A stretch of DNA of 64,000 bases from a virus (Duplodnaviria; Caudoviricetes): the IMG/VR virus record IMGVR_UViG_3300025141_000018; one strand, given 5' to 3'. The position numbers were made by a program, and so were the translations under genes. The notes below the pieces were generated by a model that did not search any database, was not told the origin of the DNA, and saw only the letters and a program-made list of their open reading frames with translations. Of this stretch, positions 49,903 to 55,913 are shown in pieces; positions within the stretch are counted from its first letter, which is position 1; each line of letters opens with the position of its first letter.

Positions 49903-49930
49903 ATTATACTATCATATAGCAAAATGTCAA
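49903..49930 (-). promoter_or_regulatory. Sigma70-type early promoter
   Basis: TTGACA-16 nt-TATAAT. Confidence 0.7.
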
Positions 49931-50718
49931 CCGAAAAAAAGAACCAAATTATTTATGTATTAAATCGAGCAGGTCATTGTGGAGTCTGGTTCTCTTGGGC
50001 ATTGCATAATGCTCTAGGCTATAATTATTATGAATCTGATTGGTTAGGATACGAATATAATTTAAATGGTAATCCAAATGGAAATAAGGAGTTAGGTGAA
50101 AAGTTACGAATGATATCGTATTTTCTATCTGAAGCCGGTCAACATGGATCATATAATACAAAAAACCATACACACAATGCTACCGATAAAATATTAATTA
50201 ACAATAGCGACGATGGTATGGCTGATAACGAGCTAATAGAATGGGCATTTGTTATTAGAGCAGTTAATCAAATACTAAAAGAGGATAAAATGTTATTCTC
50301 TAAAAAAAATTCTACAATAGTTATTCAAAACGAATTTAGATACAATTTACCAATCCAGTCAAATGATCCAAATAATTTAGTATTTTATACAAACGGAGAT
50401 ACATATTTTAAACGTACCGGAGTTTGGCGTAAAGGATTAGAAAGTATTAATGAAGATTTAGAAATGCAACCCGAAGAACCGCAAGTATTTGATCCTCTAA
50501 CTGGTGCATGTCATAGTTCTGTTCCTTCTAATTTTAGATGGGAAAACATATTAAGCGAATATTCTATTATACTAAATTTAGAAGATATGATTTTTAATAA
50601 AAATTATGATTTTGTAAAATATATATACGAAGATGTTGATATAGATGTATTGCATAATAGTATGTTACAATGGCACCATCGCATGTTAGATACACATAAA
50701 GGACAGGAATATTCATGA
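49924..50718 (+). CDS. Hypothetical protein, paralogue A (degenerate P-loop/sulfotransferase-like start)
   Basis: IIYVLNRAGHCGVWFSWAL; clear similarity to the next gene. Confidence 0.65.
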   Translation: MSTEKKNQIIYVLNRAGHCGVWFSWALHNALGYNYYESDWLGYEYNLNGNPNGNKELGEKLRMISYFLSEAGQHGSYNTKNHTHNATDKILINNSDDGMADNELIEWAFVIRAVNQILKEDKMLFSKKNSTIVIQNEFRYNLPIQSNDPNNLVFYTNGDTYFKRTGVWRKGLESINEDLEMQPEEPQVFDPLTGACHSSVPSNFRWENILSEYSIILNLEDMIFNKNYDFVKYIYEDVDIDVLHNSMLQWHHRMLDTHKGQEYS

Positions 50719-51317
50719 AACAATTAATTTACGTATTCAATGCTATTGGACATTGTGGCCATTTCTTTTCTTGGGCATTGCATGATGCATTAGGTTACAA
50801 TTATTTTAGCATAACTAAAAAAGATAAAGAATTCCAACTAAACGGTAATTTAGATGTTGGACGATTTTCTCGTGTAACATCTTGGTATCTAGCAAATTGT
50901 ATGTCCCAAGATGAATGGAATTATGTAATTACTACTACCAATATGATGAAGGATAACGGAAAGCATATGTTTCATTCACAGAAAATTAACACACTAATTG
51001 TTCAAAACGAATTTAGAAGTAACTTTTTTGTTAATAGCAACGATCCGTCTATTGTATGTTTACTACCAAATGGCAATACATATTTTGACCGTGTAAACAT
51101 TACACGATTTGATAGACAGGAAGTATTTGAACCACCAGTTGCAATACCTGTTTTAAACAAACATTGTATTGAAATAAACTTAGAAGATATGATTTTTAAT
51201 AAAAATTATGATTTTGTAGAATATCTAACGGAACCTGTAGACATAGATAGGTTACATACAAACATGTTATACTGGCATGACTTTATTCTTGAGAAAGGGG
51301 ATTCTACTTCCCCTTAG
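50715..51317 (+). CDS. Hypothetical protein, paralogue B
   Basis: LIYVFNAIGHCGHFFSWAL; shares QNEFR and NLEDMIFNKNYDFV with paralogue A. Confidence 0.65.
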   Translation: MKQLIYVFNAIGHCGHFFSWALHDALGYNYFSITKKDKEFQLNGNLDVGRFSRVTSWYLANCMSQDEWNYVITTTNMMKDNGKHMFHSQKINTLIVQNEFRSNFFVNSNDPSIVCLLPNGNTYFDRVNITRFDRQEVFEPPVAIPVLNKHCIEINLEDMIFNKNYDFVEYLTEPVDIDRLHTNMLYWHDFILEKGDSTSP

Positions 51318-51771
51318 GTACTCTTTTACTAAAATCAAATTTGTAAAACTCTAAAGATCCTTTGTTGGTGTTACTACCATCGCTTGCATCTTCAGGCTCA
51401 ATAAATTCACCTTCAATTATTTCACCTTCGCTCATTGATTCACTTGCTTTTTCTTGTTTCTTGTGTTCGGGTTCTGTGTATGGAACCTTATATGCAATAG
51501 GATCAATGTCTCCGTCGTGTACAACCCAATAATAAACCCAATCTGGTTCTTTAACAGCCGATGAAATTAATATAAACTTCTTTGACTTTATATTTTTGGT
51601 AGGATATCCTAATAATCCTTGTACTGTAATATATGTTGTTACAGTAAGCAAAAGAGAAGCAGGAATTAAAATAAACATATAAAGTTTATTTTGTCCTTTT
51701 TGTATTAGATCCCATAATATTATTGCTAATAAAAGTACCCATGCTACAATTAAAAAACTAAAAAATACCAT
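51304..51771 (-). CDS. Two-TM membrane protein, third gene of the MotA/MotB-like cassette
   Basis: Two N-terminal TM helices, then GYPT and EPDWVYYW; coupled to the upstream gene. Confidence 0.7.
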   Translation of the reverse strand: MVFFSFLIVAWVLLLAIILWDLIQKGQNKLYMFILIPASLLLTVTTYITVQGLLGYPTKNIKSKKFILISSAVKEPDWVYYWVVHDGDIDPIAYKVPYTEPEHKKQEKASESMSEGEIIEGEFIEPEDASDGSNTNKGSLEFYKFDFSKRVPKGK

Positions 51772-52574
51772 TAAAATCCTCCTTCGGGTTCCTCATCATA
51801 ATCATACGTAAGTCTACCTTCTTGGTCAACTGTTGCCGATGTTGGGCGTGATTCGCCTCGATGTTCCGTGCTTTCTAAACCTGGTGGACTACCTATATTA
51901 GTGCCCTGTGAACTGGCGCCATGAGTTAGGGGCTCCGCCGCGCCGTGCGAGTGCTTTCCCGCAAAACGTTTTTGTAATTTGTTTTTAGAAATTACCTCCC
52001 CAGCATCATTTACTTTAAATCTAACGACAGTTTCCTCCTGTCCATTATTTTTAAGAGTAAGAACATCGTTATGTACTTCGCCATACGGATTTATTTTTAG
52101 TACCTGAACAGTAACATCAATAGGACCATGTCTTCTATTCTTCTTTGAATACAAATGTACATTAACAATATACTCACCAGGTGCGGTTCCTCGAATTGTC
52201 ATTATTTCGCGATTTAGAAATATTGTCTTTTTTTGACCATTTGCTAGTTGAATAGTATCATTGCTTGAACCCAGGTCGTCTTTATCTAAATGTAACCACC
52301 CACCTTCTTTATTAGGAAATCCGACTATTGTTTTTAAAGGATCTTGCATCCATAAATCTACATCGTATACGGATTTATGATCCCACTCCATTATAATCAT
52401 AAATTCTGCTTTCGCTTCTATGTTTGCTTCTTTTGTTATAGGATTAATTAAAATAAATGCAATAATAAAAAGGAAGGCAAAACCTATTAGAACATTAAAC
52501 AATAGGTCAGTAAATGCTAAACTACTTCTATATTTTGAATCACTGTCCATCTTGTTTGTTCTCATTTTCGACAT
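51771..52574 (-). CDS. MotB/ExbD-like single-TM protein with periplasmic Ig-like domain
   Basis: AFTDLLFNVLIGF TM helix with an Asp; DVDLWMQDP...LDKDDLG...GEYIVNVHLYS domain. Confidence 0.7.
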   Translation of the reverse strand: MSKMRTNKMDSDSKYRSSLAFTDLLFNVLIGFAFLFIIAFILINPITKEANIEAKAEFMIIMEWDHKSVYDVDLWMQDPLKTIVGFPNKEGGWLHLDKDDLGSSNDTIQLANGQKKTIFLNREIMTIRGTAPGEYIVNVHLYSKKNRRHGPIDVTVQVLKINPYGEVHNDVLTLKNNGQEETVVRFKVNDAGEVISKNKLQKRFAGKHSHGAAEPLTHGASSQGTNIGSPPGLESTEHRGESRPTSATVDQEGRLTYDYDEEPEGGF

Positions 52575-52998
52575 TAACTAACTGGATTTTTAATGTTAAA
52601 GAACAAATGAGACCTACTAAGGTAGTGTATAATGCAGTACTCATACCTAGGGCCATTTTTGTAAGTGAGTTCTGTATTGTGCTAGTATTGGATAAGTCAA
52701 TGTCTGCAAATGCACCACTGAGCATTAATAAGAATCCTGTTACAGTTCCTATCATACCCAAGGCAAGGCATGCTTCGGCTGTAAACCAGCCCACACCAAC
52801 ATCTTGCTTTGTATCTTCGGTTAACTTAGTTTTCCACCCAATCCAAAGCGACGTCATTGTAAACACTGACAGTATTAAAAAACTTATTTTGGTCTGATCT
52901 GCATGGTATAGGTCAATGTGCAAATTGAAATATACTGCGATTCCACCTGCTAGGATCGAGAGGCAAAATATAAGCCACCATCTCAATAGTGCTTTCAT
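52540..52998 (-). CDS. MotA/TolQ/ExbB proton-channel family protein
   Basis: ALGMIGTVTGF and GMSTALYTTLVGL motifs. Confidence 0.85.
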   Translation of the reverse strand: MKALLRWWLIFCLSILAGGIAVYFNLHIDLYHADQTKISFLILSVFTMTSLWIGWKTKLTEDTKQDVGVGWFTAEACLALGMIGTVTGFLLMLSGAFADIDLSNTSTIQNSLTKMALGMSTALYTTLVGLICSLTLKIQLVNVENENKQDGQ

Positions 52999-53005
52999 TT
53001 AACCT

Positions 53006-53443
53006 TTAATTTAATAATTTATCCTTAGTATTTATTTCAAAATCAAATGGATCGTCCTTTTGGGGTCTGGTGCTAAGTAGATCGTGCTGTAACTGTTCTA
53101 GTTGTTTCTTTGCAACCATTTCTGTTACTTTTAAAGCATCAAATGGGCTTTCGTTAACTATTCGTTCGCCGGCTAGTAGTCCTTCTTCAGCAGTATCATA
53201 CCAAGTGGCTTCCCAAACACCTTTTACATTAGTGTGTCTAGGTTTGTCGTATACTATGCCGTTATCTTTATTAACCCAATGTAAATGGAGAGTACCTATA
53301 TATTCTTCTACAAAACCAAAGCCTTGTAGAATGTCTCGAATACCTAAACTAGGAAAAAATGGAAAGGCAGGATCGTTATATAATTTATAACGGTATTGTG
53401 TTTCTAAACTGAATCGAAGTTCTTTTTTGTCCTTGTCGTTCAT
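53006..53443 (-). CDS. Hypothetical protein
   Basis: 145 aa; no family recognised. Confidence 0.6.
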   Translation of the reverse strand: MNDKDKKELRFSLETQYRYKLYNDPAFPFFPSLGIRDILQGFGFVEEYIGTLHLHWVNKDNGIVYDKPRHTNVKGVWEATWYDTAEEGLLAGERIVNESPFDALKVTEMVAKKQLEQLQHDLLSTRPQKDDPFDFEINTKDKLLN

Positions 53444-54303: not shown

Positions 54304-55317
54304 CTATTTTTTACAATTCTCTGCACATAACCTGTTTATTTTTGGTTTATCAAATGTACTTACAAGTTCATACATCTTTTTATGCTTTAGTACATCTTCT
54401 ACAGAATATTTGGTTAAATCGTTCCAATTACCATCTTCATTAAACCAATCATAAAACTCTTCATAATTATCTGAACTACAATAATATGTATTACAACATG
54501 GAAAAAATCGTTTATCTGATGATACATAAAACCAGCCATCTCTAGTACATTCAGGTTCTAGTTCTACTCTATCTATCCATAATTGTTTAGGCTGTTTATA
54601 TCCGGGTTTCCCATTCTGCAATCCTGAAACTTGTTTAAATTCTTTTACTAACTTAAAATTTGTTTTCCATAGTTTTTGCAACTTTTTTTCTGCTACTTCT
54701 TTTGTCATTAAATTAGAGTTTATTCTAAAATTTTTAAACCCTAAATCATCTGCCAATTTTTTTGCCTGTGTTATTTGATGTTCATTATGTTTAAACACAA
54801 TATATTTCCAACATGCCGCACCTCCGGCATTAATATATGCTTTTACATTATGCATTAATCGTTTCCAAGATACACCTGCACGATATAGATGATTTGTATC
54901 TTCTAAGCCATCTATTGAAAATATAATACCACTTCTACGAACTGTGAGTATTTCTGCTAATTCTTCAAACGTTTCAGTTTTACCTAATGAACCATTTGTA
55001 TGCATAGATAATTCTAAATCGCCACCATACTTCTTTGCCTCTCGATATATTTCAGCAATACCTGGGTGTGCCATTGGATCGCCATTATTACCAATTGAAT
55101 ATAATGATTCAACATCCTTAAACCAAGGTTGGTAAAAGAACTTTTCTTGTAAAAATTTTAAGTCTAAATTTAAATCCCTAACTCCAAACGGATTATAATA
55201 CATTACTCCGTTGTCGTCGTCTATATCGACTCTAGTACAACTAACACATTTTGCATTACAATTAGAACTTAGTTCTAGTTCTATACGTTTAGGAAAATAT
55301 ATCATTTTTATTACCAA
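54304..55317 (-). CDS. Radical SAM protein with SPASM/Twitch-like C-terminus
   Basis: CNAKCVSC; GNNGDP; TNGS; FSIDG; C...PCC...C. Confidence 0.9.
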   Translation of the reverse strand: MVIKMIYFPKRIELELSSNCNAKCVSCTRVDIDDDNGVMYYNPFGVRDLNLDLKFLQEKFFYQPWFKDVESLYSIGNNGDPMAHPGIAEIYREAKKYGGDLELSMHTNGSLGKTETFEELAEILTVRRSGIIFSIDGLEDTNHLYRAGVSWKRLMHNVKAYINAGGAACWKYIVFKHNEHQITQAKKLADDLGFKNFRINSNLMTKEVAEKKLQKLWKTNFKLVKEFKQVSGLQNGKPGYKQPKQLWIDRVELEPECTRDGWFYVSSDKRFFPCCNTYYCSSDNYEEFYDWFNEDGNWNDLTKYSVEDVLKHKKMYELVSTFDKPKINRLCAENCKK

Positions 55318-55913
55318 ATTAGTCTAGACACCCAGATAATTCTATTAAACTCATGTTTTTGTTTAGGCACCGAGTGGTGACTGATTTCGGAATTTACATA
55401 CGCAAAATAAGTTCCTGGTAAACATTTTATTTGCTTAACAGGTACTATTATAACACTACCAATTTCAATATTTTTTTGTTCTTTATGAAATATAGCACCT
55501 GTCTCTGGATATTGGTTAGTATCGGGTAGATAAAAGTGCTGAGTTATACTATGTATTACCCCATCTAATTTTAATTCTTTTTTATAATCATTATATGCAC
55601 TTTGATTATAATCTGTATGTATATCTAGTTGTCCACCTTTCTTTTGTAATTGAAAAACAGAAACAAACCTATGTTTTTTAGGAATATCAATTTTAAATGT
55701 GTTAAATAGATATTCTGCTTGTTCCTTTGTTTCAAACTCGGCAAGAATACGGCGATGCCATTTAGTATGTTCAGCATGATATATTTCAGGACATAAATCG
55801 GGCTGGGGATCTGGAATCCATTTAGATGAACTATATATTTTTTTACTGAGCTCTATTGGATTTTCAATAGCATTCTCTTGTATAATATGTAAAAAGGGTT
55901 CTGCAAATATCAT
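55311..55913 (-). CDS. 2OG-Fe(II) oxygenase
   Basis: LDIHTD (HxD), SHHSV distal His and terminal R. Confidence 0.8.
   Translation of the reverse strand: MIFAEPFLHIIQENAIENPIELSKKIYSSSKWIPDPQPDLCPEIYHAEHTKWHRRILAEFETKEQAEYLFNTFKIDIPKKHRFVSVFQLQKKGGQLDIHTDYNQSAYNDYKKELKLDGVIHSITQHFYLPDTNQYPETGAIFHKEQKNIEIGSVIIVPVKQIKCLPGTYFAYVNSEISHHSVPKQKHEFNRIIWVSRLIW

What the first reader, a model, noticed from the sequence alone, without database searches (positions are those of the whole stretch)
51304..52998. Phage-encoded three-gene MotA/MotB-like ion-motor cassette
A MotA/TolQ/ExbB-family gene is coupled to a single-TM partner with the characteristic intramembrane Asp (AFTDLLF) and a periplasmic Ig-like domain, then to a third two-TM protein. 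Such 5:2 motors power flagella, Ton/Tol, gliding and the Zorya defence system. No TonB-like partner or TonB-dependent receptor is seen in the window. A phage copy could drive superinfection exclusion, modulate PMF or lysis timing, poison host Ton/Tol/Zorya motors, or power uptake (all inference).
Basis: partly seen in the sequence, partly recalled or inferred. Interest (0 to 1): 0.7.

Follow-up and report, generated by a model that had tools for sequence, protein, structure and literature searches.

The report
Phage copy of undescribed MotA-type trio
A large marine phage carries three coupled membrane genes that look like a stripped-down proton-driven motor of the Tol/Ton/flagellar-stator kind with two partner proteins of undescribed type; the same trio is kept in many phages and about 3% of sampled Proteobacteria, and nobody has described what it does.

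Summary
On the minus strand lie three overlapping genes. gA (52540-52998) passes Pfam's MotA_ExbB cut-off. gB (51771-52550) has one membrane helix with an invariant Asp. gC (51304-51771) has two helices.

The reading is partly right. This is not a phage oddity or a recent capture. The same gA-gB-gC order occurs in all 94 loci I fetched where the DNA allows: marine and rhizobial phages and 80 bacterial chromosomes with housekeeping flanks. gB is found in 13 of 400 sampled Pseudomonadota. The marine phage copies form their own clade and are under purifying selection.

Added here:
- The gB ectodomain is a TerD-like, probably Ca-binding, beta-sandwich (Z 10).
- gC has a periplasmic OB-like domain.
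- gA keeps both pore threonines of TolQ (T145/T178) but neither kink proline, and has no cytoplasmic domain.
- The cassette sits behind an ATAAATA box of the kind that precedes this phage's structural genes.

The best reading is a proton-driven Tol/Ton-like inner-membrane motor of an undescribed family that works in the periplasm, made late in infection. Its task is unknown; links to lysis are weak leads.

This scan has met the trio before on other DNA (at least 27 notes). I found no paper describing it.

The parts
53029..53035 (-). ATAAATA box, T4-type late-promoter-like, 37 nt upstream of the gA start
   Evidence: 25 copies on the minus strand of the window. 19 lie 5-70 nt upstream of a minus-strand ORF start (2.1 expected from density), including tail sheath (47252), head-tail adaptor (48067), a virion structural gene (37983) and gA (52998). 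A promoter function is inferred, not shown.
52540..52998 (-). gA: minimal MotA/ExbB/TolQ-family channel subunit, 152 aa, probably four TM helices, almost no cytoplasmic domain
   Evidence: Pfam PF01618 is above its cut-off. A family profile against PDB gives TolQ 1.8e-4, ExbB 2e-3, MotA 5e-3. T85 and T126 align with TolQ T145 and T178 and are nearly invariant and invariant respectively (PMC12215075). About 80 cytoplasmic residues present in soil-bacterial forms are absent here.
51771..52550 (-). gB: single-TM partner with invariant membrane Asp, short linker, TerD-like beta-sandwich ectodomain and a disordered C-terminal tail (ORF open to 52574; likely start at 52550)
   Evidence: D23 is invariant, as are W64, D71, D73, D99, G102, N121 and E123. 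Model pLDDT 82: helix 18-43, sandwich 58-198, tail disordered. TerD is the top match by Foldseek (E 1.5e-4) and by VIA-align (Z 10.0 and 9.3, next 6.9). The family has 1763 clusters at 50% identity with E up to 1e-3.
51304..51771 (-). gC: two-TM hairpin (N-out, loop-in, C-out predicted) with a periplasmic OB-like domain whose last strand is a conserved C-terminal motif
   Evidence: TAATG overlap with gB. Model pLDDT 78: helices 2-25 and 29-54, then b1-b2-b3-helix-b4-b5. The loop between the helices is net positive in 74 homologues (KR 1.62 against DE 0.26). G55, W82 and P91 are invariant across phage and bacterial forms. BFVD top hits are the Rhizobium phage counterparts (E 3e-6).

Best explanation
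The three genes encode a working, phage-adapted copy of an undescribed family of MotA/ExbB/TolQ-type ion-driven inner-membrane motors.

Inferred by analogy with solved Tol, Ton and stator complexes:
- gA forms the ring whose two C-terminal helices line a pore with a threonine ring.
- Two gB helices sit in that pore. Protonation and deprotonation of their invariant Asp, driven by the proton (or sodium) gradient, turns ring against axle.
- gA has almost no cytoplasmic part, so the work must be delivered on the periplasmic side.

The periplasmic parts:
- The gB ectodomain is a TerD-like, probably Ca-binding, beta-sandwich held close to the membrane by a linker of about 12 residues.
- gC is a two-helix membrane protein with a periplasmic OB-like domain. 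It occupies the gene position that TolA or TonB hold in their operons, and probably acts as adaptor or output.

Timing and purpose:
- In this phage the cassette has its own late-type promoter box, so it is probably made together with virion proteins.
- I therefore place its action on the host envelope late in infection: keeping or changing envelope state, or the timing or execution of lysis.

Shown: family membership of gA, the invariant Asp, the folds, conservation of the unit, purifying selection, and enrichment of the promoter box.
Inferred: stoichiometry, rotation, gC as a subunit, and the task.
For: - gA passes Pfam MotA_ExbB. Its family profile finds TolQ, ExbB, MotA and a ZorA-like chain in PDB.
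- gA T85 and T126 align with TolQ T145 and T178. PMC12215075 describes these as the polar ring next to the essential TolR Asp23.
- The gB Asp is invariant in 40 divergent representatives.
- gA-gB-gC keep order and strand in 94 of 94 fetched loci wherever the DNA suffices: 12 marine phage contigs, 2 rhizobial phages and 80 bacterial genomes. The same holds in further phage contigs.
- Flanks differ in phages and are housekeeping genes in bacteria. The trio therefore behaves as a self-contained unit.
- The genes overlap one another.
- dN/dS is 0.05-0.49 for all three genes among phage copies.
- In three bacterial genomes the trio's gA is an extra paralogue beside 3-11 canonical family members, including in a 1.1 Mb marine alphaproteobacterial MAG.
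- Periplasmic placement: gB has the N-in single-TM layout of ExbD. The gC loop is net positive.
- The late-type box is enriched ninefold upstream of ORF starts, including structural genes and gA.
Against: - No assembly was modelled or measured, so 5:2 stoichiometry is by analogy only.
- gA lacks both kink prolines conserved in TolQ, ExbB and MotA (the alignment read against PMC12215075).
- The gB and gC ectodomains resemble none of the known output parts. No peptidoglycan-binding, TonB_C or TolA_C domain was found.
- Nothing shows that gC binds gA or gB beyond gene order.
- The late box directly upstream of gA is seen only in this phage and its close relative L003, not in other phage lineages.
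- No expression data exist for this stretch.
Confidence: 0.6

Rival explanations
1. Lysis clock or depolarising channel. Late in infection the gA/gB channel conducts ions without doing mechanical work. It lowers the membrane potential and so sets the time at which holins or membrane-tethered endolysins fire, or it helps the endolysin reach the wall through gC.
For: - A late-type promoter box lies upstream.
- In one marine phage lineage (L008-L013) the trio follows a LysM protein, an M15 peptidase scored as endolysin (phrog_894, E 1.7e-46) and a BolA-like gene.
- The ESM Atlas holds an 86-member viral cluster whose N-terminal half has the shape of gC and whose members all carry Phage_lysozyme (TM 0.68 over 146 residues).
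Against: - The trio is kept in bacterial chromosomes with housekeeping flanks, where a lysis role makes no sense as the ancestral function.
- The most conserved residues are in the periplasmic domains of gB and gC, more than a leak would need.
- Lysis neighbours occur in only one of at least five phage contexts.
- No M15, LysM or BolA homologue lies in this window.
- The lysozyme fusion is a shape match between predicted models, and I could not retrieve it.
Confidence: 0.15
2. Exclusion or defence module. Like Zorya, the trio senses envelope disturbance by an incoming phage and blocks it. The phage carries it to keep rivals out of an infected cell.
For: - Patchy distribution: gB is in 13 of 400 evenly drawn Pseudomonadota, a frequency typical of accessory systems.
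- It moves between unrelated phage backbones.
- PADLOC ZorA models hit gA (best E 6e-6) and ZorB1 hits the gB helix (E 0.027).
- From memory, the TerD-bearing ter operon of plasmid R478 is reported to inhibit phages. This was not checked here.
Against: - The ZorA hits cover only the shared channel helices.
- gA has no ZorA tail, gB has no peptidoglycan-binding domain, and no ZorC/D/E-like effector or any nuclease lies beside the trio.
- Bacterial flanks are housekeeping genes, not defence islands.
- The gB tree follows bacterial classes, which suggests mostly vertical descent.
- Late expression is a poor fit for excluding early superinfection.
Confidence: 0.12
3. Host-function stand-in (auxiliary gene). 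The host has the same trio, and the phage supplies a minimal copy to keep that envelope function running after host gene expression stops.
For: - Marine Alphaproteobacteria, including a 1.1 Mb Pelagibacteraceae-labelled MAG, carry the short form of the trio.
- The window carries a permuted tmRNA, a type known (from memory) chiefly from Alphaproteobacteria.
- Rhizobial phages carry the trio, and Rhizobiales genomes do too.
Against: - The host of this phage is unknown.
- The phage clade is not nested in any sampled bacterial clade, so the copies have long evolved apart.
- This reading does not say what the function is. It is compatible with the best explanation rather than a true alternative.
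Confidence: 0.1
4. Recently captured, inert host operon.
For: Homologous trios exist in bacterial chromosomes.
Against: - The marine phage copies form their own clade (SH-aLRT 93), separate from all 80 sampled bacterial loci.
- All three genes show dN/dS well below 1.
- The stretch is near-identical in at least 20 marine metagenome runs from 15 studies.
- Base composition matches the rest of the phage.
Confidence: 0.02

Closest known systems
TolQ-TolR-TolA (Tol-Pal inner-membrane motor)
   Same: - Three-gene order: channel, then Asp-bearing single-TM protein, then third membrane protein.
- TolQ is the best PDB sequence match of the gA family profile (E 1.8e-4).
- Both pore threonines (T145/T178) and the axle Asp are kept.
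- The output must be periplasmic.
   Different: - gA has an extra N-terminal helix, no cytoplasmic domain and neither kink proline.
- gB carries a TerD-like sandwich instead of the TolR domain.
- gC has two helices, no SHLS motif, no long helical domain and no TolA C-terminal domain.
- No TolB/Pal-like genes are nearby.
- Carrier genomes keep canonical TolQ/ExbB paralogues as well.
ExbB-ExbD-TonB (Ton motor)
   Same: - Same superfamily and the same Asp/threonine logic.
- ExbB is hit at E 2e-3.
- A third membrane protein is encoded in the operon.
   Different: - No ExbD periplasmic fold.
- No proline-rich spacer or TonB_C domain in gC.
- No TonB-dependent receptor is linked in any locus examined.
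MotA-MotB / PomA-PomB flagellar stators
   Same: - Four-helix topology of gA.
- Weak hits to PomA, MotP and MotA models.
- Partner with an Asp at the cytoplasmic end of its helix.
   Different: - No cytoplasmic torque-generating domain in gA.
- No plug helix or OmpA-like peptidoglycan-binding domain in gB.
- It corresponds at best to the heterogeneous 'generic ion transporters' of PMC12505986.
ZorA-ZorB (Zorya anti-phage defence)
   Same: - The channel helices match ZorA models (best E 6e-6).
- Sporadic distribution.
   Different: - No ZorA tail (gA is 152 aa against 400-700).
- No ZorB peptidoglycan-binding domain.
- No ZorC/D/E partner genes.
TerD (tellurium-resistance, Ca-binding beta-sandwich; PDB 2qz7, 2kxt, 3ibz)
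   Same: - Best and clearly separated fold match of the gB ectodomain: Z 10.0 (134 residues, rmsd 3.8) and Z 9.3, with the next match at 6.9. Foldseek gives E 1.5e-4.
- gB has invariant acidic columns (D71, D73, D99, E123; D100 and D106 nearly so), reminiscent of TerD's acidic Ca sites.
   Different: - No sequence-level membership: no Pfam TerD hit at E up to 0.1, and none in five genomes that carry gB.
- TerD proteins are soluble and cytoplasmic, whereas this domain is membrane-anchored and periplasmic.
- Ca binding is untested.

Membership tests
MotA/ExbB/TolQ proton channel family (Pfam PF01618) | Score above the curated Pfam cut-off | tested here: met
   gA scores 32.4 bits against a cut-off of 22.9, E 8.8e-8. 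Phage and bacterial counterparts also hit.
MotA/ExbB/TolQ proton channel family (Pfam PF01618) | Two conserved pore threonines facing the partner's Asp (TolQ T145/T178, ExbB T148/T181) | tested here: met
   gA T85 (at least 90% conserved) and T126 (invariant) align with TolQ T145 and T178. Their role is described in PMC12215075.
MotA/ExbB/TolQ proton channel family (Pfam PF01618) | Kink prolines in the two pore helices (TolQ P138/P187, ExbB P141/P190) | tested here: not met
   In the profile alignment to TolQ both positions are Leu or other non-Pro residues in the gA family (proline numbering).
MotA/ExbB/TolQ proton channel family (Pfam PF01618) | Pentamer around a dimer of the partner (5:2) | not testable with these tools
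No solved structure of this family was found in PDB by sequence.
ExbD/TolR/MotB partner | Single N-terminal TM helix with an essential Asp near its cytoplasmic end, encoded directly after the channel gene | tested here: met
   Helix 18-43. D23 is invariant in 40 representatives. gB overlaps gA. ZorB1 model hit on residues 4-51, E 0.027.
ExbD/TolR/MotB partner | Periplasmic ExbD/TolR fold or OmpA-like peptidoglycan-binding domain | tested here: not met
   No Pfam hit at E up to 0.1. No PDB sequence hit with the family profile at E up to 10. The fold is a TerD-like sandwich.
TonB/TolA force transducer | One N-terminal TM helix with the SHLS motif | tested here: not met
   gC has two helices. Invariant and nearly invariant columns across phage and bacterial gC all lie outside the helices.
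TonB/TolA force transducer | Long periplasm-spanning region and a TonB_C or TolA_C terminal domain | tested here: not met
   No Pfam hit. The model shows a small OB-like barrel of about 90 residues.
Zorya (ZorAB plus effectors) | ZorA with a long C-terminal tail; ZorB with a peptidoglycan-binding domain; ZorC/D or ZorE alongside | tested here: not met
   gA is 152 aa, and PADLOC hits cover only the channel helices. Neighbours in the window, phages and bacteria show no such genes.
TerD domain (Pfam PF02342) | Sequence match to the family model | tested here: not met
   No hit at E up to 0.1. The TerD model finds nothing in five genomes that carry gB.
TerD domain (Pfam PF02342) | TerD beta-sandwich fold | tested here: met
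   VIA-align Z 10.0 (134 aligned, rmsd 3.8, 18% identity) and Z 9.3, with the next match at 6.9. Foldseek ranks TerD entries first.
TerD domain (Pfam PF02342) | Acidic Ca-binding sites | tested here: inconclusive
   Acidic columns are invariant. No residue-level superposition or coordinates were available to place them on TerD's sites.
OB fold (gC ectodomain) | Five-stranded barrel with a helix between strands 3 and 4 | tested here: inconclusive
   The order of secondary structure fits. The best matches are OB domains but weak: eIF5A Z 6.9 over 70 residues, Foldseek E 0.2 or worse.

The most novel reading that the evidence does not exclude
The trio is a new kind of ion-driven envelope machine. 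Its periplasmic Ca-binding sandwich (gB) and OB-domain partner (gC) convert proton flow into mechanical work on the cell wall or outer membrane. Phages deploy it late in infection as an energy-dependent device that times or drives envelope disruption. That would be a motor-assisted step in lysis, unlike the known holin, endolysin and spanin steps.
Probability: 0.15. Interest if true: 0.85.

Novelty: new variant of a known kind. Interest (0 to 1): 0.64.

Why it matters
The few known jobs of 5:2 ion-driven motors are flagellar rotation, Ton uptake, Tol-Pal division, gliding and type IX secretion, and Zorya defence. Each was a landmark when found. This looks like a further branch, with new periplasmic parts.

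- It is stripped down to about 150 residues in the channel subunit.
- It is kept as a unit in many unrelated phages and in roughly 3% of sampled Proteobacteria, including a 1.1 Mb marine genome.
- No function is known and I found no paper on it.

If it is a motor, it would be the smallest natural version, which makes it attractive for structural and mechanistic work. It would also be the first one known to be routinely carried by phages.

Culturable carriers exist: Sinorhizobium phage 16-3, Rhizobium phages such as P10VF, Comamonas badia and Chelativorans sp. J32. The question can therefore be tested directly.

Tried and rejected
- **Complex prediction.** gB ectodomain (44-210) against gC ectodomain (50-155): no verdict, score 0.00 against a mark of 0.32. 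This is evidence neither way. A 5:2 model could not be sent because of the six-chain limit.
- **Sequencing runs.** No RNA holder is listed for the stretch. I did not lay reads.
- **DNA similarity.** blastn of the region against the phage collection found no match.
- **PDB by sequence.** gA alone gave nothing meaningful. The gB family profile gave nothing at E up to 10.
- **Fused forms.** Search for longer forms of gB: none at E up to 1e-3. This is weak evidence.
- **First genome scan.** It was repeated with A3.
A full TTAA-N7-TTAA box lies near gA in 1 of 17 alphaproteobacterial loci, with 0.86 expected. The lead is not supported in this sample.
- **Lysis-gene homologues.** No homologue of the M15 peptidase, LysM or BolA-like neighbours of the L008-type phages is in this window.
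- **Lysozyme fusions.** A second viral scan with the gC alignment found only the same marine clade and one further trio.
- **DUF4811.** Atlas feature search for gC gave a score of 0.79, too weak to use.
- **VWA-FHA gene.** It follows gC in about 29 gammaproteobacterial loci. It is no better conserved there than the neighbouring tilS and accA, so synteny alone does not link it to the trio.
- **Two literature searches failed on syntax**. Later searches found nothing on this trio.
Full report
**What is there**

The window is a large tailed phage. It has a tail sheath, large terminase, head-tail adaptor, helicase and ribonucleotide reductase. Its terminase is 53% identical to that of the Pseudomonas jumbo phage PA5oct group. 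No whole genome is held for it. The identical gC protein is on record on a 231 kb contig. The stretch occurs almost unchanged in at least 20 marine or seawater metagenome runs from 15 studies.

At 51304-52998 three minus-strand genes overlap one another.
- gA is 152 aa.
- gB is a 267-aa ORF. Its likely start is the third Met at 52550, where homologues and the Atlas record begin.
- gC is 155 aa and starts in a TAATG overlap with the gB stop.

**gA**

gA passes Pfam's MotA_ExbB cut-off (32.4 bits against 22.9). It gives weaker hits to ZorA, PomA, MotP and TolQ models.

A profile of phage and bacterial gA sequences finds these chains in PDB:

| PDB chain | E-value |
|---|---|
| TolQ | 1.8e-4 |
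| ExbB | 2e-3 |
| MotA | 5e-3 |
| ZorA-like | 6e-3 |

In that alignment gA T85 and T126 fall on TolQ T145 and T178. PMC12215075 describes these as the polar ring next to the essential TolR Asp23. Both are conserved in the gA family. The two kink prolines of TolQ and ExbB are not kept.

gA has three clear hydrophobic helices and a probable fourth. That gives a MotA-like four-helix layout. The cytoplasmic loop is only about 15 residues. Gamma-, Beta- and soil Alphaproteobacteria carry about 80 extra residues at that point and a C-terminal extension.

**gB**

gB has no Pfam family, and its family profile has no sequence relative in PDB. The family is nevertheless large, with 1763 clusters at 50% identity. 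In 40 divergent representatives the membrane Asp is invariant. So are W64, D71, D73, D99, G102, N121 and E123.

The model (pLDDT 82) shows a helix at 18-43, a short linker, a beta-sandwich at 58-198 and a disordered tail.

Two independent structure searches put TerD first.
- Foldseek gives E 1.5e-4.
- VIA-align against 48,161 chains gives Z 10.0 and 9.3, with the next match at 6.9.

The ESM Atlas adds DUF2135 domains at TM 0.4-0.6. This is likeness of fold only. The TerD Pfam model does not hit gB.

**gC**

gC diverges faster than the other two genes; a word-based search found 37 clusters. It is still recognisably the same protein in bacteria. G55, W82 and P91 are invariant. The motifs LGWP, EP, PRAYxLPY and a C-terminal LPxPxxPxK are shared.

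The model (pLDDT 78) is a helical hairpin followed by strand-strand-strand-helix-strand-strand, which is the OB order. Matches to OB domains are weak. The best viral structural matches are the Rhizobium phage counterparts. The loop between the helices is net positive in 74 homologues, so the domain should face the periplasm.

**Distribution**

tblastn of gB finds 29 isolate records, all Rhizobium or Sinorhizobium phages. In these, genes of matching size and family flank it.

I fetched 94 loci: 12 marine phage contigs, 2 rhizobial phages and 80 bacterial genomes. Iterated searches on their ORFs recover gA, gB and gC in the same order and strand wherever the DNA is long enough.

- Bacterial flanks are unrelated housekeeping genes: NnrS, pyrF and a PQQ dehydrogenase; tilS and accA; SufBCD, aspartate dehydrogenase and IspG.
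- Phage flanks fall into at least five types.
- NCBI names the bacterial gB 'hypothetical protein'.
- In three carrier genomes the trio's gA is the weakest of 4-12 MotA_ExbB matches. It is therefore an extra system, not a replacement for Tol or Ton.
- gB occurs in 13 of 400 evenly drawn Pseudomonadota.

**History**

On a gB tree the bacterial sequences group by class. The marine phage copies form their own clade (SH-aLRT 93), nested in none of the sampled bacterial groups. The tree is unrooted and the bacterial sample is the best 80 of many.

Among phage copies dN/dS is 0.05-0.49 for all three genes. dS is saturated, so the values are rough. A recent, inert capture is thus very unlikely.

**Timing**

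ATAAATA occurs 25 times on the minus strand of the window. Nineteen copies lie 5-70 nt upstream of an ORF start, against 2.1 expected. These ORFs include the tail sheath, the adaptor and a virion structural gene. One copy lies 37 nt before gA. This resembles the T4-type late promoter (from established knowledge of T4; not tested here).

The box directly before gA is shared only with the close relative L003.

**Leads on the task**

All of these are weak.
- In the L008-L013 phages the trio follows a LysM protein, an M15 peptidase scored as endolysin and a BolA-like gene.
- An 86-member viral Atlas cluster combines a gC-shaped N-terminal half with a phage lysozyme domain. I could not retrieve it.
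- In about 29 gammaproteobacterial loci gC is followed by a protein with a signal peptide, a periplasmic VWA domain, a TM helix and a cytoplasmic FHA domain. In the Atlas, DUF2135 is often fused to VIT and VWA domains. But tilS and accA are as well conserved in the same loci.

**Reading**

The parts that define a Tol/Ton/stator-type channel-and-axle pair are present and conserved. The output parts are new. gA has no cytoplasmic domain, so any work must be done in the periplasm, through the gB sandwich and probably gC.

I rate this motor reading at 0.6. Its purpose in infection is open. A late envelope or lysis-related role fits the promoter and the weak leads. Exclusion and host-function stand-in remain possible.

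The single complex job gave no verdict. No paper describing the trio was found. The 'generic ion transporters' of PMC12505986 are the nearest published category.

**Earlier notes of this scan**

Earlier notes describe the same trio on other DNA in at least 27 genomes and reach similar conclusions. I confirmed the roughly 3% prevalence and the late box. I did not confirm the CtrA-box lead.

Noticed in passing
window 5542-5811 (-): Phage-borne permuted (two-piece) tmRNA. Rfam RF04321 scores 78.4 bits, E 4.9e-15. ARAGORN calls a permuted tmRNA at 5451-5849 with tag peptide ANNAEYSPNYAMALAA. From memory, permuted tmRNAs are known chiefly from Alphaproteobacteria and a few other groups, so this may hint at the host.
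   Followed up: partly
window, minus strand, e.g. 47293, 48091, 44462, 38009, 53035: ATAAATA boxes are strongly concentrated 5-70 nt upstream of minus-strand ORF starts (19 of 25 copies, 2.1 expected), including structural genes. This is a usable late-promoter map for this phage.
   Followed up: partly
window 49924-50718 (+) and 50715-51317 (+): Two overlapping tandem paralogues (264 and 200 aa, shared N-terminal and C-terminal motifs) run convergent to the trio and overlap the gC 3' end by 14 nt. They have no Pfam or PHROG family and are shared with the close relative L003.
   Followed up: no
window 51297-51313 (-): A short hairpin GGGGA-AGTAGAA-TCCCC spans the gC stop codon and is followed by TTTCTC. 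It may be a weak terminator. I read it from the sequence; the terminator scan did not call it.
   Followed up: no
L034:6334-7932 and about 28 other gammaproteobacterial loci: A bitopic protein with a signal peptide, a periplasmic VWA domain, an acidic linker, a TM helix and a cytoplasmic FHA domain lies directly after gC in one gammaproteobacterial clade. It may be a partner or mere synteny.
   Followed up: partly
L008:224-3499 (also L009-L011, L013): In one marine phage lineage the trio follows an 808-aa LysM protein, an M15 peptidase (endolysin family phrog_894) and a BolA-like gene. It is followed by endonuclease V.
   Followed up: partly
window 54304-55913 (-); L096 446-9989: Radical SAM genes lie near the trio in this window (337 aa). 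Several lie near it in an unrelated phage contig. This is probably coincidence in plastic genome regions.
   Followed up: no
L033, L075, L077: Trio-bearing contigs are labelled Nanoarchaeia, Parcubacteria and Sphaerisporangium MAGs. They sit among proteobacterial or Desulfobacterales sequences on the gB tree and are probably mis-binned.
   Followed up: no
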